Below are positions 6,295 to 61,134 of a stretch of DNA of 64,000 nt, piece after piece. Every line of letters begins with the position of its first letter. The first letter of the stretch is position 1. Under the pieces are notes generated by a model, which was not told the origin of the DNA, made no database searches, and saw nothing but the letters and a program-made list of their open reading frames with translations. Location: positions 36,669 through 100,668 of the IMG/VR virus record IMGVR_UViG_3300020186_000396. One strand, written 5' to 3'. The position numbers and the translations under genes were made by a program. The DNA comes from a virus.

Positions 6295-6958
6295 CGCTAT
6301 TTATTCTGCTGTCATGACTTTTGGCCACGAGGCCATCGCAAACCCACCAATTGCGTTACCGCTGGCTTCCGAGAAGCTAGGTAAACCTATTCAGCTGTCA
6401 GGGTGCCCTGGTTTGCGCGTTGTGGAGTGGCGAGCCAGTCAAGAGTGGTCGTACACGTCGCAGAGTGACGATGGCGTAAAGGTTATGGAGAAAGCGTGCC
6501 AAACCACATTGGTGCGCTATCCAGAATTTCTGCGTTCTAAAAAATTAGAATTCAAACAGGAATCATTCTCTGTCGATATGGCTCTTATTCCAGCCAACAC
6601 TATTGGTGATGGTAAAGAGTCACGAAACATGAATGACGTTAACGGTCGATTTCAAATCGTACAGCCTAATTGCTGTTCGTGGGGAATTTATGATTCCCAA
6701 TTATCGTTCCTATTTCTTCGTAATGACCCCATCTCAATTCATGGTGGGAAGAGCGTTACGAACAAGTATTTCGTCAGAACGTTCTTTCACGAGTTGGGGC
6801 ACGTGCTGAATCACAAGTGGCACGTCAAAGAACGTTATTTTCCTAACAATCCGTCAGAGGACGAGAAGCTCGTTGAAGAGTGGGTTTCGTACCTTGGGAT
6901 TACGTTCGCCACCGAATCTTCATCTGAAGATTGGATGATGAAAAAACGTAGCCAATGA
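6266..6958 (+). CDS. Secreted zinc metallopeptidase-like protein
   Basis: N-terminal signal peptide; FFHELGHVLNH (HExxH) plus downstream Glu residues. Confidence 0.55.
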   Translation: MKNIKVLILSAIYSAVMTFGHEAIANPPIALPLASEKLGKPIQLSGCPGLRVVEWRASQEWSYTSQSDDGVKVMEKACQTTLVRYPEFLRSKKLEFKQESFSVDMALIPANTIGDGKESRNMNDVNGRFQIVQPNCCSWGIYDSQLSFLFLRNDPISIHGGKSVTNKYFVRTFFHELGHVLNHKWHVKERYFPNNPSEDEKLVEEWVSYLGITFATESSSEDWMMKKRSQ

Positions 6959-7134: not shown

Positions 7135-7326
7135 TTTTCTCCAAAAAGAATACCCCTCCCCTTACGAGATAGAGTTTATAATTGCGATGCCTGCGGCATC
7201 GCCATCGATAGAGATATTAATGCAGCAATAAATGTTAGAAGGCTCGGTACGAGCCTTGCGATATCCGGAGAAATAAATTCGCCGGATACTTTCAGAAGCC
7301 TCGCCCTTTAGGGCGAGGTAGTTCAC
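7135..7326 (+). mobile_element. IS200/IS605-family deletion derivative, copy A, with 3' tnpB remnant (7159-7311)
   Basis: TTAT, then a left-end sequence fused to PLRDRVYNCDACGIAIDRDINAAINVRRLGTSLA..* (TnpB Zn finger and RuvC-III), then right-end hairpin CCTCGCCC-TTTA-GGGCGAGG-TAGTTCAC. Confidence 0.85.
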
Positions 7327-13683: not shown

Positions 13684-13852
13684 CATTCTCCAAAAAGAAT
13701 ACCCTCCCTTTAGGGGGATGAATTTTTGTTCAGAAAAATATAATGCGTTATATAGAGTAGCAATGGGGCTCGGGACGAGCCTTGCGATATCCGGCGAAAT
13801 AAATTCGCCGGATACTTTCAGAAGCCTTGCCCTTTAGGGCGAGGTAGTTCAC
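13684..13852 (+). mobile_element. IS200/IS605-derived mini-element, copy B (left end plus omega-RNA-like right end, tnpB deleted)
   Basis: TTAT|CATTCTCCAAAAAGAATACC..., near-identical to copy C, ending GGTAGTTCAC. Confidence 0.85.
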
Positions 13853-13882
13853 AGACGCTATCAATAAACTATAATAGTATTG

Positions 13883-15229
13883 ATGCCGCCTCCAACTAAA
13901 AAGCGCCCAAGAAAGCCAAATAAGAACAAGGATATTGAGGCTCTCCTTCAATTGAAGGATAGAACAAATGTTCAAACATCGATGTTCATCTGGGATCTTA
14001 TTGCTCTGAAGAAGGGTTTGAATGGTCGCGGTGACGTAGATCATCGCCTTCCACCATCACGAATTCATCAAAAACTGGATGCCAGCATTACCAGCCTCAT
14101 CAGCAAGCTCACTGGTCAGTATAGAGATCTCGCGCAAAATTCTTTACAAATTGTAAAACAGCAAGAGCAGCTGGCGGACACACTTTCTAAGAAAAAATCT
14201 GAGAAAAATAAAAACCAGACAGAGCCTCAAGCAGCTCCAGTGTCTACTCCGGCGGGCCCATCTTCTATGTTCGGTAATTTGGCTCCGGAACAAAAATCCG
14301 CGTCCGAGAACGTTGAATTTGTTACCGAGGCGACCAATCCATTTTCTCGTAGTTGGTACCGCATGAAGGCGCCTTTTACTTCATCGCCAGGTGCGCGTTT
14401 ACTTGAAGGTATTCTTTTTCGCCTTCTTGACCTGAAAAATGAAACGGAAGAGATGCAAGACGCCTGCGTCTCTACCAGCGCAAACGATGTTAATCGCCTG
14501 GTACAATCCAAAGAAAATTTCAATTATCATTTAGCTGCCGTTAACAAACAATATCTTCAGTATGCTAAAGAAACTGGGCAAACACCAAGCGGCGAAAATT
14601 TAGGCAACGAGTACGGGGCTATTCAATCTAAGTTTGACAATTACATGGCAGAGTTCCTGATTGCAAACTCTATAGCTGGTATCAGCGGCTCGTTCAAGCA
14701 TAGGTTTAAAGAGTTAGCAACCGTTTTTAAGAGTTCTCAAAATGATACTGATAGAAACGATATCCTCCAAAAAATGGATATCGTATACAAACAGCTTATA
14801 GCTTACATTAGATCTGAATTTCAGCTCAGTGTAAATAAGCCTTGGTCGACCATTAAAGAAGTTTACAGTTTAGGCCCAGTACCAATTCCTAAAGATATGG
14901 GAATGGCTAGTGATCCGGTATTAACTGGAAACGAAGATCAACTACAAACTCTTGCACATAATATTTTAAGTCGTCTTTTGAAAAAGAAAAGAATGGAACT
15001 TCCATTCTCTGACGCGAACGCTGGTATAAGATTGAAAGTTTTTCAGGTGCTAACAACTACAAGAAAATTGATCATTGACGTGATGAATAAGATTGAAAAG
15101 GGAGAACCAGAAACGCTTGGAAATTATATTCAACAGTTGAAATCCAAGAACGACGAGATAACCCGTTTAGTGACTACTCTTGCGGAATCAGTATCAAAAA
15201 TTAATGTAAAAGAAAAGAAGAAAAAATGA
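13883..15229 (+). CDS. Hypothetical protein, possible virion-internal protein
   Basis: 448-aa helical ORF with two similar segments (EATNPFSR / LAHNILSR). Confidence 0.6.
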   Translation: MPPPTKKRPRKPNKNKDIEALLQLKDRTNVQTSMFIWDLIALKKGLNGRGDVDHRLPPSRIHQKLDASITSLISKLTGQYRDLAQNSLQIVKQQEQLADTLSKKKSEKNKNQTEPQAAPVSTPAGPSSMFGNLAPEQKSASENVEFVTEATNPFSRSWYRMKAPFTSSPGARLLEGILFRLLDLKNETEEMQDACVSTSANDVNRLVQSKENFNYHLAAVNKQYLQYAKETGQTPSGENLGNEYGAIQSKFDNYMAEFLIANSIAGISGSFKHRFKELATVFKSSQNDTDRNDILQKMDIVYKQLIAYIRSEFQLSVNKPWSTIKEVYSLGPVPIPKDMGMASDPVLTGNEDQLQTLAHNILSRLLKKKRMELPFSDANAGIRLKVFQVLTTTRKLIIDVMNKIEKGEPETLGNYIQQLKSKNDEITRLVTTLAESVSKINVKEKKKK

Positions 15230-18383: not shown

Positions 18384-18610
18384 GCGCATTTACGAATGAA
18401 CTTCTGAAAAAAGCAAACCTCGAACTAGCTAAGCTAAAAGATGTTTTAGCAGACCACGGTATTAATCATTGCTTTTGCGGAGAGTATGAAAAATCTAGTG
18501 AACTCGATGAGGATGGTGAACCGGAACGCAGCGAGTTTGATAGAGGTTGGGTAAAGTATTTCCATCCAAAATGCTATAAAGCTAATGGCGGTATTAAACC
18601 TAAAGATTGA
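18380..18610 (+). CDS. Small hypothetical protein with Cys/His motif
   Basis: HCFCG...FHPKC. Confidence 0.5.
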   Translation: MSAFTNELLKKANLELAKLKDVLADHGINHCFCGEYEKSSELDEDGEPERSEFDRGWVKYFHPKCYKANGGIKPKD

Positions 18611-19005
18611 GGTGCCATTGCCGTTTTAGTTTGTGTTACGAGATACTGGTAATTATCTGACAGTTCCTCAAACAGTCGCCATTTGCGACTGATGAGTGTG
18701 TAGCATCGATAATAAGAAGATCTCGCTAACGTGTGATAATAGTCTTCAGACGCCCCATTCAGGGAGGCGGGGAACATGCTTTCTGAAAAGAAAAGCCAGT
18801 CCCCTATGTTCTGGAAGCCCGAGAAGTCCTGACGCTCCCTCGCTTCGGCGTAGAGGAGCGTCACGCTTTCTTGTGAAAAGTCAAACTCGGCAGACGTGTA
18901 TCTTTTAAAGATGCTCGTAATATAGGCTTTCGTGTCGTTCTGGCACGAAACGGTCTCTAGTTTTTGGTTAAGAAAGTCTAATAGATTTATTTTTGTAATG
19001 AGCAT
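18574..19005 (-). CDS. Conserved hypothetical protein of bacterial type
   Basis: QNIGDWLFF..FPASL..DYY..ARSSY..LFEELSDNY, a pattern recalled from bacterial hypothetical proteins. Confidence 0.6.
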   Translation of the reverse strand: MLITKINLLDFLNQKLETVSCQNDTKAYITSIFKRYTSAEFDFSQESVTLLYAEARERQDFSGFQNIGDWLFFSESMFPASLNGASEDYYHTLARSSYYRCYTLISRKWRLFEELSDNYQYLVTQTKTAMAPQSLGLIPPLAL

Positions 19006-24785: not shown

Positions 24786-24829
24786 CATTCTCCAAAAAGA
24801 ATACCCCTCCCTTTAGGGAAGGGATGAAT
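24786..24829 (+). mobile_element. Isolated IS200/IS605 left end
   Basis: TTAT|CATTCTCCAAAAAGAATACCCCTCCCTTTAGGGAAGGGATGAAT, same as copies B and C; no right end. Confidence 0.75.
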
Positions 24830-24860
24830 GTTTAATTCGTGCTGGTGTGGCTGGAAACAA

Positions 24861-32663: not shown

Positions 32664-33653
32664 ATGGCAGTCATAAGCTTAACAATAACCGAATCAGCCG
32701 AGCAAATCGTATCCGGAATACCAGTAACGATATCGTTTTCCACTAACGTTCCGGCTACAATTTTTTATGTTCTTGATGGTTCAGTTCCGACGACTGCGTC
32801 GGAGGTTTATGTCACGACCATTATTTTATCAACAGCTTTACCAAGCCCTCGGCTGCGAGTATTTGCAACCAACGGAACAGATTCGTCTGCCATCATCGAG
32901 AAAGATTATGGACCGAACGTAACCAGGTCTCGTTTGCCTCACGCATCCGTGACTGGATTAAATATAAATGCTACTCATTCGCTAGGCCCATTTGGAACTA
33001 ACAGCACTGCCACGTCAACTGCTAAGTTTACAAATCCTGCTGACGCAGGAATTACGGTACTGGCTCCGGATTTAACTACATATTCATCTGGTCATGTCGA
33101 TGCTGATGGTTACGGCGCGGCTCTTATCAATGAACCAACGGTATTAAATTATCACATCATTCAAACAGATTTTAATTCTGGAGGTCATCGTGGACCAGGC
33201 ATCGGAACGATAGTTCCGGTTACGACACTTCCAGAACGGAACAATGACGTTCCTCAGGAATCAAATCGCGCCAATAAGTTATTCAATCCTAGAGCGATGG
33301 TCATTTTCCAAGATGCATCCACAGAAGATACGTCCGCTCCACCTCAGTTGAATCGAGAATATTTCTCGATGGAAATTCCCGAGAAGGAAAAAGATGCCAC
33401 GCTTCTTTCGAACTGCGGACCAGATACGGCCACCGCAACTGGTTCTTTTCTAAGAGCTTATCATAATCCGCGTGATAACACCATTACGTATTATTATAGA
33501 GATAGCGCAACTAATCGTTGGCTTATTTCTAAACAGCCATATCAGCTACGAGACCCAAATATTGCGAATTTATCCAATATGGTTTTTGGCCGAGAGCAGG
33601 GCCAGGGATTTGTATTCCGATGGGTTCCTTTCTCAAGAAGAGTGCTAACGTGA
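32664..33653 (+). CDS. Probable virion protein with chitobiase/FN3-associated N-terminal domain
   Basis: ATIFYVLDGSVPT..S.VY..I motif; Thr/Ser-rich beta protein. Confidence 0.55.
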   Translation: MAVISLTITESAEQIVSGIPVTISFSTNVPATIFYVLDGSVPTTASEVYVTTIILSTALPSPRLRVFATNGTDSSAIIEKDYGPNVTRSRLPHASVTGLNINATHSLGPFGTNSTATSTAKFTNPADAGITVLAPDLTTYSSGHVDADGYGAALINEPTVLNYHIIQTDFNSGGHRGPGIGTIVPVTTLPERNNDVPQESNRANKLFNPRAMVIFQDASTEDTSAPPQLNREYFSMEIPEKEKDATLLSNCGPDTATATGSFLRAYHNPRDNTITYYYRDSATNRWLISKQPYQLRDPNIANLSNMVFGREQGQGFVFRWVPFSRRVLT

Positions 33654-33685
33654 ACTGCCTCGCCCTTTAGGGCGAGGTAGTTCAC
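33650..33685. mobile_element. Back-to-back fused IS200/IS605 right ends (36-bp palindrome)
   Basis: GTGAACTGCCTCGCCC-TTTA-GGGCGAGGTAGTTCAC, a 15/16 inverted repeat. Confidence 0.75.
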
Positions 33686-52072: not shown

Positions 52073-52761
52073 ACATCTCTGAAATACTTAAAGCATTTGC
52101 TGAAGAGCTTGAAAACCCTGATAACATTGCACTGCGCAACGCAGAGGAGGATGACACGCTTGATATCGTTGCCACCGCCTGCTTGCAAGCCGCAACAATT
52201 TTTCGGGAAGCTGCCAGCAAAACAGCTGATCCATCAGTAATTACAACAGAACGCCTAGAAGAAATGGCTGCGCTCGCGGCCGAGTTCGACGCATCTGGCG
52301 ATGAACTGCTTCAAAAGCAAGCATCCGTCCTGGATGAAATTCTGCTTACCATTGCCGCGCCTAAAGGAGTAAAGGCATTATCAACACGCTATGAAGACGA
52401 GAAGATCGAAGCACTGAAAAAAGAATATGCTAAGACAAAGGAAGCTCTTGATGAAAACATCAAGGTGAGCGATGCACGTAAAGACATTGAAAAGTCTGAT
52501 TCGTACAAAGAATATCGTCCTCTAGAAGCAGCACTTAGTACACGGTACTGTCCCGATCATCCTGGAGTTCCTACTGCCCGTGTTGGTGAGCATGAATTTC
52601 AGTGTGCTTTAGACCAGAAGACATTTAATTTTGAGACCGGATACCGAACTTCTAAGGGTAATTCTGTTCCTGGTGGACGAGTAGAGTCACAGCCTATTCA
52701 CAATGAGCCCCACTCAATGTTCGATACGCGCGAGTCCCGCCTCGCATCTGGAGATAAGTAA
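52069..52761 (+). CDS. Hypothetical protein, putative virion protein
   Basis: LAAEFDASG..KQASVLDEIL; TRYCPDHPG..QC.LD. Confidence 0.6.
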   Translation: MNISEILKAFAEELENPDNIALRNAEEDDTLDIVATACLQAATIFREAASKTADPSVITTERLEEMAALAAEFDASGDELLQKQASVLDEILLTIAAPKGVKALSTRYEDEKIEALKKEYAKTKEALDENIKVSDARKDIEKSDSYKEYRPLEAALSTRYCPDHPGVPTARVGEHEFQCALDQKTFNFETGYRTSKGNSVPGGRVESQPIHNEPHSMFDTRESRLASGDK

Positions 52762-52766
52762 GTTAT

Positions 52767-52941
52767 CATTCTCCAAAAAGAATACCCCTCCCTTTAGGGA
52801 GGGGATGAATTTTTGTTCCAGAAAAATATAATGCGTTATATAATAGTAACAATGGGGCTCGGGACGAGCCTTGCGATATCCGGCGAAATAAATTCGCCGG
52901 ATTCTTTCAGAAGCCTCGCCCTTTAGGGCGAGGTAGTTCAC
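52767..52941 (+). mobile_element. IS200/IS605-derived mini-element, copy C
   Basis: TTAT|CATTCTCC..CCCCTCCC-TTTA-GGGAGGGG..ATG fused to the last tnpB codons..CCTCGCCC-TTTA-GGGCGAGGTAGTTCAC. Confidence 0.88.
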
Positions 52942-52950
52942 ATTGTAGGT

Positions 52951-53700
52951 ATGAATAAAGCTTCACTAAAGAAGTTCTGGGAACACCCAGATAAAGATGA
53001 ACTACTTGCAAAGTTAATTGAAGGCGTAAAGCCTAAAGAAATATATGAGTGGCTTCATGCTAAGTATGTTTCTGATGCCGAGAAGCGCTTTATATTATCA
53101 GAAGATCTACTGAGCGATTTTAAAGATGATCAGTTAGATTTCTATCTAATTATTCGTACCGATGCATTAGCTCTTAAAAGCAATACATCGATTGATAAAG
53201 CCGTTGATGTTCGGCTTAGTCGAAGCAAGAAGTATCGCGAGAAGCTACTAGAGCTAACCGAAAAAGAAGTAGATATCAAACAAATCGTCAGAGGTTTGGT
53301 TGCAAAGATTGAAATAAAGGTCGAGCAAGTATTTGAACAGATTCAGGAAAATAACGATCCTGATGACTTCAAAGACGATCATACATTGATTAAGTGGTTG
53401 ACATTATTAATGGAGGCTGCTGAAAAGTGTAATAAAATGGTTAATGAGGCTCCCGATCATGTCGTACAGCACCAGCATACCATCCAGATAGCTGATCAGC
53501 AGATTAACATTATCATAGACACGATTAAGGATATTCTATCCAAAATCGATTATGAGGCGTCGTTATATTTCATTGAACAGTACAACGAACGCATTGGCGC
53601 GCTTAAAGCGCCAGAAGAATTTAAGCCAGCTCAAACCGAAGTAAGGCTCGCTGAAGCTAAATTACTAAGCGATAGGGTGGCTGAAAAGATTAAAGACTAA
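52951..53700 (+). CDS. Hypothetical protein with N-terminal HTH-like region (candidate small terminase)
   Basis: HPDKDELLAKLIEGVKPKEIYEWL; located in the packaging block. Confidence 0.45.
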   Translation: MNKASLKKFWEHPDKDELLAKLIEGVKPKEIYEWLHAKYVSDAEKRFILSEDLLSDFKDDQLDFYLIIRTDALALKSNTSIDKAVDVRLSRSKKYREKLLELTEKEVDIKQIVRGLVAKIEIKVEQVFEQIQENNDPDDFKDDHTLIKWLTLLMEAAEKCNKMVNEAPDHVVQHQHTIQIADQQINIIIDTIKDILSKIDYEASLYFIEQYNERIGALKAPEEFKPAQTEVRLAEAKLLSDRVAEKIKD

Positions 53701-58221: not shown

Positions 58222-61134
58222 GTGAGTGCAGACTTATTTAATAAACTACGTTCGAATCTGCTTAGCTTAGACCCTGTCTATTTTTGTGAAAACTATCTAA
58301 CGCTTGAAGGAAAGCCGTTCCGTCTAACCAACAATGGCTATAAACCTTTTGCAGATATTTATCGATACATAGCAATCAAGGCACTAGAAAGAGACTCTAA
58401 GCCGGTAGTTATTATCAAGGGCCGCCAGGTCGGAGCCACTACGATGTGCTCGGCTTTGGAAATGTATTTCATGGGTTGTGGATTGTTCGGAAACACCGAC
58501 CGCCCAGCGATGAGAATCATTCACGCGTTCCCTCAATTGGACCTGGCATACGCCTATTCCAAAACCAAACTGAACCCGATGATTTCAGGTGCCCTTGCAC
58601 TTGAGCCAGCGAAAAAGGGACAGAAGTCACGCTCGTATATGCAGGCGTTACTTGATCCTACCAGCCCTGCAAACGACTCTCTTAACTTCAAACAATTCGT
58701 CGGTGGTAATCACCTTTGGATTGAGTCGACCGGAGAAACAGCAGACAGGCTCCGTGGACGTTCGGCAGACGTTATTTTTTATGACGAATGCTTAACGTAC
58801 GACACTTACATTGAAACTGTCGACGGTAAAATTGCGATAGGCAAGCTGGTGCAAAATTACGAGGCGGGCAAGTATGTTCCGCTCATCAAGACGTTTAACG
58901 AACAGCAGGAAAATTTTGAATACAAACAAGTTGTAAACGTATGGAGTAGAGGTGATCGAGACGTTCTACAAATTCAATGTGGAAAAAGAAAAGTTAAGTG
59001 CACGCCAAATCACCCGTTTTTAACGAATGACGGATGGAAACGCGCAGATGAATTGAGCGTCGGTAGTTTAATAAAAACATCTGTAGGCACTGATTTACAT
59101 AATAGAGCGCTAAACGACGACCAGTACCAAGTTGTTTTAGGGTCATTTTTGGGGGACGGGAACGTCTCTTCTTATAAAGACAAGCGTTCACGATTGCGCA
59201 TCATTCACGGAGAATCTCAAAAAGAGTATTGTGAGTGGAAAGCCTCTCTCTTTGGCCGCGATTGTGAAAGACTCGAAGAGAACGGTTTTAGTAAAAAACC
59301 AGCATACAGATTCGCGACGAAGAGTTTTGCGCTGCCGAAATCTTTCCCTAAGTCTAAAACAAACTGCCCGCAGTGGGTTCTTGATGATTTGGATGCACGA
59401 GGCATTGCCGTATGGTTTATGGACGATGGTAACGTAGTAAAAAAGTGGAACTCAGGAGTGGCGACGAGGCTATCTACGTGCTCTTTCGATCTAGATACGC
59501 AAGAGCGTATAGTAAGAAAATTTGCAACGCTAGGTATAGATTCGCATTACGCAAAGTACAACGGGTACACTTACATTCATTTTAATAAGGATGGCTCGAA
59601 TAAGTTATTCGATCTTATAAGTCCGTATATTCATAAATCGATGACATACAAAACGACTAATTCTAGTTGTAGCTATGTATGGAATACATCGTTCAAACAG
59701 TTCGGTTATGAAGTGGTAGATTCGATTTCTTCGATGTCTAAGCCGGAAAATGTTTACGATATTGAAGTAATAGACAATCACAATTTTATTGTAACACCAG
59801 GGCGTAAGAGCAAAAACGTTGGCGGATTAATCACCCATAATTGCCAAGACATTCCGAAACAAGCAATTGGAAACGCATCCAAGATCTTGGCGAAGGCTCG
59901 GTACGGTCGTAACGGAGAAGGCGTTCAAGTATTTTTCGGCACACCAAAGCAGCGTGGTTCCGAATTTTTCGATATGTGGCAGCAGTCATCGCAGCAGTAT
60001 TTCAATCTGCACTGCGAACAATGTGACAAGTACTATCCGCTGTATACGCCAGGTTCTGATCAATGGGAAGAGACTTGGGTTCATACCAATACAGTCCGCT
60101 GTCCATTCTGCAAACACGAGCAAGATAAGGTCCATGCTGCCGAGACTGGTAAGTGGGTCGCAACACGCGATCCCGATGAGTGTCCATTTATCGGATTTCA
60201 TATGAGCCAGTTGTTCATACCGGATTTCACAAAAGAGAAGATCATCTCTGAAAAACCAGAGAACTCATTGGTTAACAGCGAGCGTGCTTATCAAAATGAA
60301 GTTTTAGGAGAGTTCTTCAGCGGCGAAACTGGAATCATGAATCCAGAAGATGTCCGCGAGAAGTGTGGAGACATTGGTCGCAAATTCCGGGCACACATAG
60401 CACCCAATCAAGAACACGGAGTATTCATCGGTGTAGACATTGGACAGAAGAGTGACCTTGAACAGCTGGTCGACTCTAAGAAAAAGAAAGTACAGGGCCA
60501 AAGCTATAGTTGCGCTGTAGTTCTTAGTTTAGTAGGACCGAACCTTCTTCAAATAGAGTTCGCTAGAAAATTCAAGCACAACGACTTCGCTAGCAAGAAG
60601 GCCGAAGTAGAACATTTGATGCGCATGTATAGCGCTAACGTAACGGTATGCGATATCGGATTCTCCAACGATTTTTGTGAATTGATGCACAACGAACACG
60701 GAGAAAAATTCATAGCTTCGAATGCCGTTGCTAGAATTACAGACCATATCAAATACAACAAAGAGGTGTATCCTAAAACAATATACTTCGAACGAGATTA
60801 CTACATCGGCGAACTGTATGACCAAATGAAAAAGGGTCAAATACGATTCCCGTATGGAAGTTACGAGCTTATGAGTTGGCTGGTGCAGCATTGTACAAGC
60901 ATGGAAATCAAACCATCCATTTCTCGAACCGGAGAAGTAACGCCGCACTATGCAAAAGGAAGTCAACCGAACGACGGATTCATGGCACTGTTGAATGCCT
61001 ACATAGCTTATCGCTGGTATCAAACAAAGGGTTTCACAATAAAGAACCCATTACTTTTTAATAATCCGTTTGATAAGCATCGACCAAAGCAGAGGATTCC
61101 AGCGATCTTGGGCGTCGTCGGTAGAATGAAGTAA
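58222..61134 (+). CDS. terL: Terminase large subunit (GpA-like) containing an intein
   Basis: KGRQVGAT Walker A, LRGRSAD.IFYDE Walker B, FGTP, Zn motifs, GVDIG nuclease, DGFMA. Confidence 0.93.
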   Translation: MSADLFNKLRSNLLSLDPVYFCENYLTLEGKPFRLTNNGYKPFADIYRYIAIKALERDSKPVVIIKGRQVGATTMCSALEMYFMGCGLFGNTDRPAMRIIHAFPQLDLAYAYSKTKLNPMISGALALEPAKKGQKSRSYMQALLDPTSPANDSLNFKQFVGGNHLWIESTGETADRLRGRSADVIFYDECLTYDTYIETVDGKIAIGKLVQNYEAGKYVPLIKTFNEQQENFEYKQVVNVWSRGDRDVLQIQCGKRKVKCTPNHPFLTNDGWKRADELSVGSLIKTSVGTDLHNRALNDDQYQVVLGSFLGDGNVSSYKDKRSRLRIIHGESQKEYCEWKASLFGRDCERLEENGFSKKPAYRFATKSFALPKSFPKSKTNCPQWVLDDLDARGIAVWFMDDGNVVKKWNSGVATRLSTCSFDLDTQERIVRKFATLGIDSHYAKYNGYTYIHFNKDGSNKLFDLISPYIHKSMTYKTTNSSCSYVWNTSFKQFGYEVVDSISSMSKPENVYDIEVIDNHNFIVTPGRKSKNVGGLITHNCQDIPKQAIGNASKILAKARYGRNGEGVQVFFGTPKQRGSEFFDMWQQSSQQYFNLHCEQCDKYYPLYTPGSDQWEETWVHTNTVRCPFCKHEQDKVHAAETGKWVATRDPDECPFIGFHMSQLFIPDFTKEKIISEKPENSLVNSERAYQNEVLGEFFSGETGIMNPEDVREKCGDIGRKFRAHIAPNQEHGVFIGVDIGQKSDLEQLVDSKKKKVQGQSYSCAVVLSLVGPNLLQIEFARKFKHNDFASKKAEVEHLMRMYSANVTVCDIGFSNDFCELMHNEHGEKFIASNAVARITDHIKYNKEVYPKTIYFERDYYIGELYDQMKKGQIRFPYGSYELMSWLVQHCTSMEIKPSISRTGEVTPHYAKGSQPNDGFMALLNAYIAYRWYQTKGFTIKNPLLFNNPFDKHRPKQRIPAILGVVGRMK
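58789..59841 (+). mobile_element. Intein with LAGLIDADG homing endonuclease (351 aa)
   Basis: Starts CLTYDT, block B CTPNHPF, LGSFLGDG and WFMDDG, ends VYDIEV..NHNF..THN, followed by extein Cys. Confidence 0.95.

What the first reader, a model, noticed from the sequence alone, without database searches (positions are those of the whole stretch)
52767..52941. Dispersed tnpB-less IS605 mini-elements that keep a promoter and an omega-RNA-like scaffold
Seen: copies at 13684-13852 and 52767-52941 (169 and 175 bp) share the same deletion junction (CAATG|GGGCTCGGGACGAGCC). It joins an ATG to the last 24 or so tnpB codons, so the short unit appears to have moved as a unit. Each follows TTAT and keeps the left-end hairpin, a GTTATAT promoter-like motif, hairpins GGCTCG-gga-CGAGCC and ATCCGGCGAA-ataaa-TTCGCCGGAT, and the right end ..TAGTTCAC. 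Copy A (7135-7326) has a different deletion and still shows the TnpB RuvC-III motif DRDINAAINV. Established: the TnpB omega/reRNA overlaps the tnpB 3' end and right end, and its guide is the flanking host DNA. Inference: these are guide-RNA-only cassettes, each programming a TnpB in trans against the empty allele, for example in co-infecting sibling phages. That would be a dispersed RNA-guided homing or competition system. No tnpA or tnpB gene is present in this window.
Basis: partly seen in the sequence, partly recalled or inferred. Interest (0 to 1): 0.75.

Follow-up and report, generated by a model that had tools for sequence, protein, structure and literature searches.

The report
Gene-less TnpB mini-transposons in a phage
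A large uncultured phage carries about 170-base, protein-less miniatures of an IS200/IS605 "jumping gene"; they keep both transposon ends, a promoter-like box and what looks like the whole guide-RNA module of the nuclease TnpB, which is a kind of element already described in bacteria and seen repeatedly in phages.

Summary
Copies B (13684-13852) and C (52767-52941) share one deletion junction. Copy A (7135-7326) has a different junction. The window also holds a solo left end (24786-24833) and a solo right-end palindrome (33650-33685).

The same 174-bp mini, with the same junction, sits at 10 or more different sites in independent assemblies. Every copy follows TTAT and ends TTCAC, so it moved as a unit and is not an assembly artefact.

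Its parent is a 1272-bp tnpB-only element encoding an intact 390-aa TnpB, found in related metagenome contigs. The window's own phage record has a rearranged copy and a copy cut by the contig end. No Y1 transposase was found.

The junction lies 1-3 nt upstream of an 86-88-nt module. By position, this module matches the processed 116-nt omegaRNA scaffold of ISDra2, whose TnpB is the closest solved relative. That half is far less variable than the left half.

These are PATE-like, stand-alone omegaRNA elements. This kind is published (Altae-Tran 2021; Meers 2023), and this scan has already noted many in other phages. Function in trans and phage-versus-phage homing remain plausible but untested. 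Verdict: new member of a known kind, modest interest.

The parts
52763..52766 (+). TTAT target / predicted TAM of copy C
   Evidence: All 32 elements with both ends are preceded by TTAT.
52767..52941 (+). Mini-element C, 175 bp; the only structurally intact mini in the window
   Evidence: It equals reference element positions 1-87 plus 1187-1272.
52785..52804 (+). Left-end hairpin CCCCTCCC-TTTA-GGGAGGGG, followed by a T-run (terminator-like on both strands)
52827..52844 (+). Promoter-like stretch with two TATAAT hexamers; the second lies 7 nt before the remnant ATG
   Evidence: TATA-N6-7-ATG precedes long ORFs more often than any hexamer does in this record (37% against 20%). The sigma-70 consensus scan found no + strand site.
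52852..52854 (+). tnpB start codon at the deletion junction; it opens a 24-codon in-frame remnant ORF
52856..52941 (+). Predicted omegaRNA scaffold, 86 nt: H1 52856-52870, H2 52878-52902, right-end hairpin 52914-52933 with UUUA loop, tail TAGTTCAC 52934-52941
   Evidence: Fold z = -4.7. H1 and H2 are kept with changed sequence in diverged relatives. Positional match to ISDra2. Only 3 of 87 columns vary among 10 copies.
52942..52957 (+). Predicted 16-nt guide of C (flank ATTGTAGGTATGAATA); it covers the start codon of the next gene (52951)
   Evidence: Inferred from the ISDra2 16-nt guide and the flank sequence.
13684..13852 (+). Mini-element B, 169 bp; same junction (ATG 13763-13765); left-end hairpin damaged; U-G variant in the right-end hairpin
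13853..13868 (+). Predicted 16-nt guide of B (AGACGCTATCAATAAA)
   Evidence: inferred.
7135..7326 (+). Copy A, 192 bp. The junction lies in the left-end hairpin loop (reference 1-30 joined to 1106-1272). It keeps the RuvC-III codons (7207-7236) and the scaffold. It lacks the left-end 3' arm and the promoter-like stretch, so it is probably immobile.
24786..24833 (+). Solo left end (reference 1-48) after TTAT
33650..33685 (+). Solo right-end hairpin turned into a 36-bp palindrome (an inverted copy of the tail replaces the natural 5' flank). It overlaps the stop codon of ORF 32664-33653.

Best explanation
B and C are PATE-type, non-autonomous miniatures of a 1272-bp tnpB-only (IS1341-like) member of the IS200/IS605 family that has colonised a large phage. 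So are the same 174-bp unit at eight or more other sites in the same record and in related contigs.

Origin and movement. One internal deletion fused the tnpB start codon to the last 22 codons (through one new Gly codon). The product was then moved as single-stranded DNA by a Y1 TnpA supplied in trans. That TnpA was not found in the 195 kb at hand, so it is probably host-borne or elsewhere in the phage. Insertion is always 3' of TTAT.

What the mini keeps. On the left it keeps the left-end hairpin and a promoter-like TATAAT placed 7 nt before the old ATG. On the right it keeps an 86-88-nt module (H1, H2, right-end hairpin with UUUA loop, tail GUAGUUCAC). By position this module equals the processed omegaRNA scaffold of ISDra2.

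Inferred mechanism. The cassette is transcribed from about the junction into the right flank. This would give a scaffold plus a roughly 16-nt guide that matches its own insertion site. TnpB made by full-length copies binds this RNA in trans and cuts any allele that reads TTAT plus flank, meaning an excised or never-occupied site. Recombination with an occupied genome copy then restores or spreads the mini.

Shown: the anatomy, the copy history, the existence of the cognate TnpB, and stronger conservation of the RNA half. Inferred: transcription, loading in trans, cleavage, and homing between replicating or co-infecting phage genomes.

Copy A, the solo left end and the solo right end are immobile relics.
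For: Mobility as a unit:
- One junction occurs at 10 distinct sites in several assemblies.
- 32 of 32 elements follow TTAT and end in TTCA[C/T]; the 20-nt right flanks listed do not begin with TTAT, so no target duplication is apparent.

Parent element and TnpB:
- The parent is 1272 bp and encodes a 390-aa TnpB with IGIDLG, VVEDLN, CxxC...CxxC and DRDINAAINI.
- It hits all three Pfam TnpB domains.
- It aligns end to end with ISDra2 TnpB, E = 6e-45.
- A copy 99% identical over 643 bp runs off the start of the same phage record.

Scaffold:
- UUUA loop at -20..-17, GUUCA at -6..-2 and GAA at -32..-30, as described for ISDra2.
- H1 starts 9 residues after the RuvC-III Asp. The ISDra2 scaffold starts about 12 residues after its Asp (my count).
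- H1 covaries (GGCTCG/CGAGCC against GGGTCG/CGACCC, plus one G-U).
- H2 is replaced by unrelated hairpins at the same place in diverged relatives that have the same ends.
- Weak sub-threshold Rfam hits fall only on HgcC and sot0042. From my own knowledge, these two families overlap tnpB 3' ends.

Constraint: 3 of 87 columns vary in the RNA half against 24 of 91 in the left half (Fisher p = 1.4e-5). All three variable sites are loop, linker or G-U changes.

Only this class spread: the other deletion forms (392, 192, 117-120 and about 50 bp) each sit at one site.

Published precedent for use in trans: PMC10691335 and PMC10055086.
Against: - There are no expression data.
- No + strand sigma-70 promoter was called, and the phage's promoter type is unknown.
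- H1 has a 3-nt loop, so the ISDra2-type pseudoknot, whose 5' strand lies in a 19-nt loop of stem 1, cannot form in the same way. No conserved partner for the tail was found.
- H1 and H2 belong to a tiling of about 20 hairpins along the whole tnpB gene. A hairpin is therefore not in itself a mark of the omegaRNA.
- Low variation in the RNA half could reflect youth, TnpA constraints on about 35 nt, or gene conversion from full-length copies. The alignment columns are not independent.
- No intact tnpB is proven within this phage record: one copy is inverted and deleted, the other is cut by the contig end.
- No TnpA and no empty site were found.
Confidence: 0.6

Rival explanations
1. Plain decay products. 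The minis are hitch-hikers on TnpA alone. The omegaRNA part is kept only because the deletion happened to end there. It is not made or not used, so it gives no homing benefit.
For: - A graded series of deletion forms exists, down to about 50-bp chimeric hairpins.
- B and a copy in L127 have damaged left-end hairpins.
- One site holds a 167-bp form in one assembly and a 117-bp form in others, which shows decay in place.
- No pseudoknot partner was found.
- Hairpins tile the whole gene.
Against: - Only the class that keeps both the promoter-like stretch and the full predicted scaffold reached many sites.
- The RNA half is much less variable than the left half, including about 50 nt that TnpA should not need.
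- The junction lies within 3 nt of the predicted scaffold start.
Confidence: 0.28
2. Co-opted regulatory cassettes. The phage keeps the minis because the left-end hairpin plus T-run ends upstream transcripts, and the element's promoter then drives the next gene. The insertion had split that gene's own TATA-type box.
For: - The left-end hairpin scores as a terminator on both strands.
- All copies are intergenic, and those in the window lie in gene orientation.
- Joining C's flanks restores TATATT 6 nt before the ATG at 52951.
- The right end lies 9 nt from that ATG.
Against: - The same unit sits at many unrelated sites, some with broken left-end hairpins.
- B's downstream gene has its own TATAAT box beyond the element.
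- Intergenic position is also what purifying selection on insertions would give.
Confidence: 0.1
3. Assembly collapse of full-length elements.
For: Contigs of this phage do break inside full-length copies: the starts of G000 and G001, and several metagenome contig ends.
Against: - The junction carries bases (GG) found at neither parent position, and the two parent positions share no long word.
- The identical junction is found at 10 sites with different flanks.
- It is found at the same sites in independent assemblies (L138 = L140; L110 = L150 = L140).
Confidence: 0.02

Closest known systems
PATEs (palindrome-associated transposable elements) of IS200/IS605, for example the PATE-like elements of Geobacillus stearothermophilus (Meers et al., PMC10055086) and of Haloquadratum (PMC3119063)
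   Same: Protein-less, both subterminal hairpin ends kept, multi-copy, moved by TnpA in trans. Meers et al. state that they often encode omegaRNAs that would need TnpB in trans.
   Different: Here the host replicon is a large phage. The parent is a tnpB-only element with no TnpA in sight. The promoter-like box is fused within 1-3 nt of the predicted scaffold start.
Stand-alone omegaRNAs of OMEGA systems (Altae-Tran et al. 2021, as summarised in PMC10691335)
   Same: Mobilised omegaRNA loci without an effector or transposase, found in genomes that also hold effector-bearing loci. They are reported to work in trans.
   Different: No function has been tested here. Completeness of the scaffold is inferred from position only.
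ISDra2 TnpB and its omegaRNA (PMC10097598; PDB 8h1j, 8exa)
   Same: - Closest solved protein, aligned full length at E = 6e-45.
- The RNA 3' part matches position for position: UUUA loop at -20..-17, G-UUC-A at -6..-2, GAA at -32..-30.
- The scaffold starts about 10 residues after the RuvC-III Asp.
   Different: - Scaffold of about 88 nt against 116 nt.
- The stem-1 equivalent has a 3-nt G-N-A loop instead of a 19-nt loop that carries the pseudoknot strand.
- TAM is TTAT, not TTGAT.
- The element has no tnpA.
Homing of free-standing endonuclease genes in T-even phages, and 'transposon non-restorative homing' (review PMC13565253); TnpB gene drive in multicopy plasmids (10.1101/2025.02.20.638934)
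   Same: An occupied allele cuts the empty allele of a co-resident genome copy and is then copied into it.
   Different: This is only a proposed parallel here. The nuclease and the guide would sit on separate elements.

Membership tests
IS200/IS605 family element | Different subterminal hairpins at the left and right ends, with no terminal inverted repeats | tested here: met
   The left-end hairpin is CCCCTCCC-TTTA-GGGAGGGG, 18 nt inside the left end. The right-end hairpin is CCTCGCCC-TTTA-GGGCGAGG, 8 nt from the right end.
IS200/IS605 family element | Insertion 3' of a fixed tetra- or pentanucleotide, without target duplication | tested here: met
   32 of 32 elements follow TTAT; the 20-nt right flanks listed do not begin with TTAT, so no duplication is apparent.
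IS200/IS605 family element | Cleavage sites matched by a tetranucleotide 5' of each hairpin (the IS608 rule; details from my own knowledge, principle in PMC10055086) | tested here: met
AATA precedes the left-end hairpin and pairs position by position with TTAT. GAAG precedes the right-end hairpin against the end TCAC, the same pattern as IS608 GAAT/TCAA with the last pair changed on both sides.
IS200/IS605 family element | A Y1 (HUH) TnpA that moves it | tested here: inconclusive
   No PF01797 match in G000 or G001, which is 195 kb and about 46% of the estimated genome. IS200-type tnpA-only elements that end in the same right-end hairpin exist in other metagenome contigs.
PATE (protein-less IS200/IS605 derivative) | No protein gene, both ends kept, several copies | tested here: met
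   B and C hold only a 24-codon remnant ORF. One junction occurs at 10 sites. Copy A fails this test because the 3' arm of its left-end hairpin is lost.
Stand-alone omegaRNA | Carries the full scaffold of a cognate TnpB's omegaRNA next to a site-specific guide | tested here: inconclusive
   The 86 nt are 97-100% identical to the 3' end of the intact element and span the positional equivalent of the ISDra2 scaffold. The pseudoknot partner was not identified. No Rfam family reaches threshold.
Stand-alone omegaRNA | Is transcribed and guides TnpB in trans | not testable with these tools
   This needs RNA data or biochemistry.
TnpB (cognate nuclease) | HTH, OrfB_IS605 and Zn-ribbon (TNB) domains with the RuvC D-E-D residues | tested here: met
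   Met in L124 and L115. In the window's own record, the 355-aa copy has lost RuvC-I through a 173-bp inversion plus a deletion of about 100 bp. The other copy is cut at residue 187 by the contig end.

The most novel reading that the evidence does not exclude
The phage, or its resident tnpB elements, maintains a dispersed library of promoter-driven guide cassettes. In each, the transcription start was fused to the scaffold's 5' end, so that no TnpB processing is needed. Each guide is aimed at the promoter or start region of a phage gene in rivals that lack the insertion. One TnpB would then drive many loci at once during co-infection, acting as an array-less forerunner of a multi-spacer system.
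Probability: 0.15. Interest if true: 0.65.

Novelty: new member of a known kind. Interest (0 to 1): 0.3.

Why it matters
If the minis are used in trans, a single nuclease gene would serve many independently placed guides in a phage genome. That would be a natural, array-free multi-guide arrangement, and a route by which transposon nucleases could bias inheritance between co-infecting phages.

As it stands, the locus is a well-documented example of something already described:
- one junction at 10 sites;
- a graded decay series;
- a parent element and a diverged sister family with the same ends.

It gives a compact candidate omegaRNA (about 88 nt) and a TTAT TAM for a 390-aa relative of ISDra2 TnpB, which could be tested directly.

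Tried and rejected
- Empty sites. Flanking proteins of C and B have no relatives in IMG/VR. Exact joined-flank patterns for C and B gave nothing in IMG/VR. Occupied-versus-empty polymorphism could therefore not be shown for the minis.
- G001 against L141. One near-orthologous pair shows a replacement at the 118-bp stub, not a clean empty site.
- Phage GenBank collection: no match to the mini.
- Covariation from the 80 viral TnpB homologues (30-40% identity). None has a TTTA-loop right-end hairpin, so they belong to other end and omegaRNA types and were dropped.
- MAFFT/RNAalifold on the few diverged relatives. The alignment was not structural, so I relied on per-sequence folds.
- H1 loop G-N-A as the pseudoknot strand. 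I considered this because two relatives read GAA, which is complementary to UUC at -5..-3. I set it aside because the intact elements read GUA, the loop is 3 nt, and G-N-A triloops recur along the whole gene.
- Rfam: only sub-threshold hits.
- TnpA in the records behind the metagenome loci could not be searched.

Full report
WHAT IS THERE

The window is bases 36669-100668 of a 100,668-bp IMG/VR phage record that CheckV estimates to be 24% complete. It encodes a DNA polymerase, an SbcC-like protein, a large terminase with a LAGLIDADG insert, and a portal protein.

B (13684-13852) and C (52767-52941) share the junction GCAATG|GGGCTCGG. Copy A (7135-7326) has a different junction and keeps the codons for DRDINAAINV. 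Pattern searches add a solo left end (24786-24833) and a solo right-end hairpin that has become a 36-bp palindrome (33650-33685).

Upstream of the window, the same record holds:
- a fourth mini (18541-18714, minus strand);
- a left end followed by an inverted right-end half (6354-6546);
- an 1169-bp copy whose 355-aa ORF has lost RuvC-I through a 173-bp inversion plus a deletion of about 100 bp (13837-15005);
- a copy that runs off the contig start (1-644, minus strand) with an intact N-terminal 187 aa.

A second 94,891-bp contig from IMG/VR (G001) shares nothing with this record except copies of the element. One of those copies lies at its very start, so assemblies break in the full-length copies.

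THE PARENT ELEMENT AND ITS NUCLEASE

A scan of metagenome contigs with the right-end 22-mer gave 44 stretches. Two of them (L115, L124) hold an uninterrupted 1272-bp element that is 97-99% identical to the window's copies.

Its 390-aa ORF has IGIDLG, VVEDLN, two CxxC pairs and DRDINAAINI. It hits HTH_OrfB_IS605, OrfB_IS605 and Cas12f1-like_TNB. It aligns end to end with ISDra2 TnpB at E = 6e-45.

The left end runs straight into tnpB, so this is a tnpB-only (IS1341-like) element. No Y1 transposase (PF01797) is present in either phage contig. IS200-type tnpA-only elements that end in the same right-end hairpin do exist in other short metagenome contigs. The same 22-mer also occurs in DPANN archaea, a Methanolliviera MAG and a Spirochaete.

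THE MINI IS A TRANSPOSING FAMILY, NOT AN ARTEFACT

The form made of reference positions 1-87 plus 1187-1272, with the identical junction, occurs 13 times at 10 distinct flanks. Three of these are in this record. Some sites are recovered in independent assemblies. Every element with both ends (32 of 32) follows TTAT and ends in TTCA[C/T]; the 20-nt right flanks listed do not begin with TTAT, so no target duplication is apparent.

The tetranucleotides 5' of the two hairpins (AATA, GAAG) fit the IS608 guide and cleavage-site pattern for TTAT and TCAC. The details of that rule come from my own knowledge. The principle is stated in PMC10055086.

Other deletion forms each sit at a single site, or are in-place shortenings of a mini:
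- 392 bp;
- 192 bp (copy A);
- 117-120 bp;
- about 50-bp chimeric hairpins made from the left-end 5' arm and the right-end 3' arm.

The junction contains bases absent from both parent positions, so a k-mer shortcut cannot explain it.

DOES IT KEEP THE GUIDE-RNA MODULE?

For ISDra2 the processed omegaRNA is a 116-nt scaffold plus a 16-nt guide (PMC10097598). It has these landmarks:
- stem 1 at -116..-86;
- a pseudoknot between -106..-102 and -6..-2;
- stem 2 flanking stem 3;
- stem 4 with a UUUA loop at -20..-17;
- a GAA at -32..-30 that was wrongly predicted to pair with the tail.

The element here has UUUA at -20..-17, G-UUC-A at -6..-2 and GAA at -32..-30. It has a long hairpin H2 where stem 3 lies, and a 6-bp hairpin H1 at -88..-74.

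Counting codons, H1 begins 9 residues after the RuvC-III Asp. The ISDra2 scaffold begins about 12 residues after its Asp (my count). The size difference (116 against 88) is what a 3-nt instead of a 19-nt stem-1 loop, plus a shorter stem 3, would give. The mini's junction therefore falls 1-3 nt upstream of the predicted scaffold start.

Diverged elements with the same ends keep H1 through changes on both sides or a G-U change. These are L131/L114 (47% protein identity), L113, and L133/L146. They replace H2 with unrelated hairpins at the same place.

Among the 10 copies at distinct sites, 3 of 87 columns vary in this half, against 24 of 91 in the left half (p = 1.4e-5). The columns are not independent. 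The three variable sites are a loop base, a linker base and a C-to-U change that keeps a G-U pair.

Rfam gives only sub-threshold hits, to HgcC and sot0042.

CAVEATS

- I could not find the 5' strand of a pseudoknot. H1's 3-nt loop cannot play the ISDra2 role in the same way.
- H1 and H2 belong to a striking tiling of the whole tnpB gene by perfect hairpins. A hairpin alone is therefore not evidence of an RNA gene.
- The promoter is only promoter-like. The second TATAAT lies 7 nt before the old ATG, an arrangement modestly enriched before long ORFs in this record. The sigma-70 scan finds nothing on the + strand.

COMPARISON WITH WHAT IS KNOWN

- PMC10691335 states that stand-alone, mobilised omegaRNAs without an effector occur beside effector-bearing loci, and that they were shown to work in trans.
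- Meers et al. describe PATE-like elements and note that PATEs often encode omegaRNAs that would need TnpB in trans.
- A 2026 review lists transposon homing into co-infecting phages or plasmids as a category.
- A TnpB gene drive has been shown in multicopy plasmids.
- This scan has already noted many such protein-less omegaRNA minis in other phage genomes. It also holds notes, one with a follow-up, on look-alike stretches in another genome that may be the sister contig G001.

VERDICT

Anatomy and mobility are shown, and the cognate TnpB exists. Function in trans and competition between phages are untested. The finding is a new member of a known kind, and interest is modest (0.3).

The most unusual thing seen on the way is the hairpin tiling of the tnpB gene, which is reported under things noticed in passing.

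Noticed in passing
L124:2903-4174 (intact element); same feature in the copy upstream of the window (L007:1501-2669): The tnpB element is tiled with perfect hairpins: 22 with stem >=7 bp in 1272 bp (17 per kb).

Comparisons:
- 1.2 per kb in the rest of the phage record;
- 0.45 per CDS in 200 codon shuffles (maximum 3);
- 0.85 per 1.1 kb in 41 other viral tnpB genes.

Many loops are G-N-A triloops closed by C-G (GCGAAGC type). Nine hairpins sit at the same protein-alignment column in the 47%-identical L131 tnpB, several with different stem sequences. Selection may act on the single-stranded DNA transposition intermediate; this is unexplained.
   Followed up: partly
window 33650-33685: The solo right-end hairpin has been turned into a 36-bp near-perfect palindrome. 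An inverted copy of the tail GTGAACTG replaces the natural 5' flank. It overlaps the stop codon of ORF 32664-33653. This looks like a snap-back or template-switch product.
   Followed up: partly
upstream of the window: L007:1501-2669 and G000 6354-6546: Inversions recur at hairpin feet. A 173-bp in-frame inversion plus a deletion of about 100 bp removes RuvC-I but leaves a 355-aa ORF. At a second locus the right-end half of a mini is inverted relative to its left end.
   Followed up: partly
window 52755-52960 (also 18535-18545 of the record): Joining the flanks of C restores TATATT 6 nt before the ATG at 52951. The TTAT target therefore lay inside a TATA-type box in front of the next gene, and the right end now sits 9 nt from that ATG. 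The mini at 18541-18714 shows a similar pattern.
   Followed up: partly
window 58222-61134: The large terminase ORF (970 aa) carries a LAGLIDADG homing-endonuclease-like insert at residues 299-479, which may be an intein.
   Followed up: no
L108, L112, L123, L132, L151; L152-L162: The right-end 22-mer CCCTTTAGGGCGAGGTAGTTCA also ends IS200-type tnpA-only elements in short metagenome contigs. It occurs in DPANN archaeal MAGs, a Methanolliviera MAG and a Spirochaete. This right end is shared by a very wide group of elements.
   Followed up: partly
L141:14411-14455; L120:560-609; L121:4618-4667; L129:88-137: About 50-bp ultra-mini elements follow TTAT and end in TTCA[C/T]. In them the left-end 5' arm is fused to the right-end 3' arm through the shared TTTA loop. 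Each junction type was seen at one site only.
   Followed up: partly
L127:214-380 against L118:14-130 and L139:2180-2296: The same insertion site (flanks CTCGGATTTTAT / TATCCCCAGG) holds a 167-bp mini in one assembly and a 117-bp version in two others. This is decay in place.
   Followed up: no
window, all five copies; G001: There is an orientation bias. All five copies or relics in the window are on the + strand, and all four in G001 are on the - strand. This would fit the known strand preference of IS200/IS605 insertion relative to replication direction (own knowledge).
   Followed up: no
end of G001 (L107, last 160 bases): The contig ends in a long perfect palindrome that folds back on itself. 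The homologous contig L141 continues normally there, so this is probably an assembly artefact.
   Followed up: no
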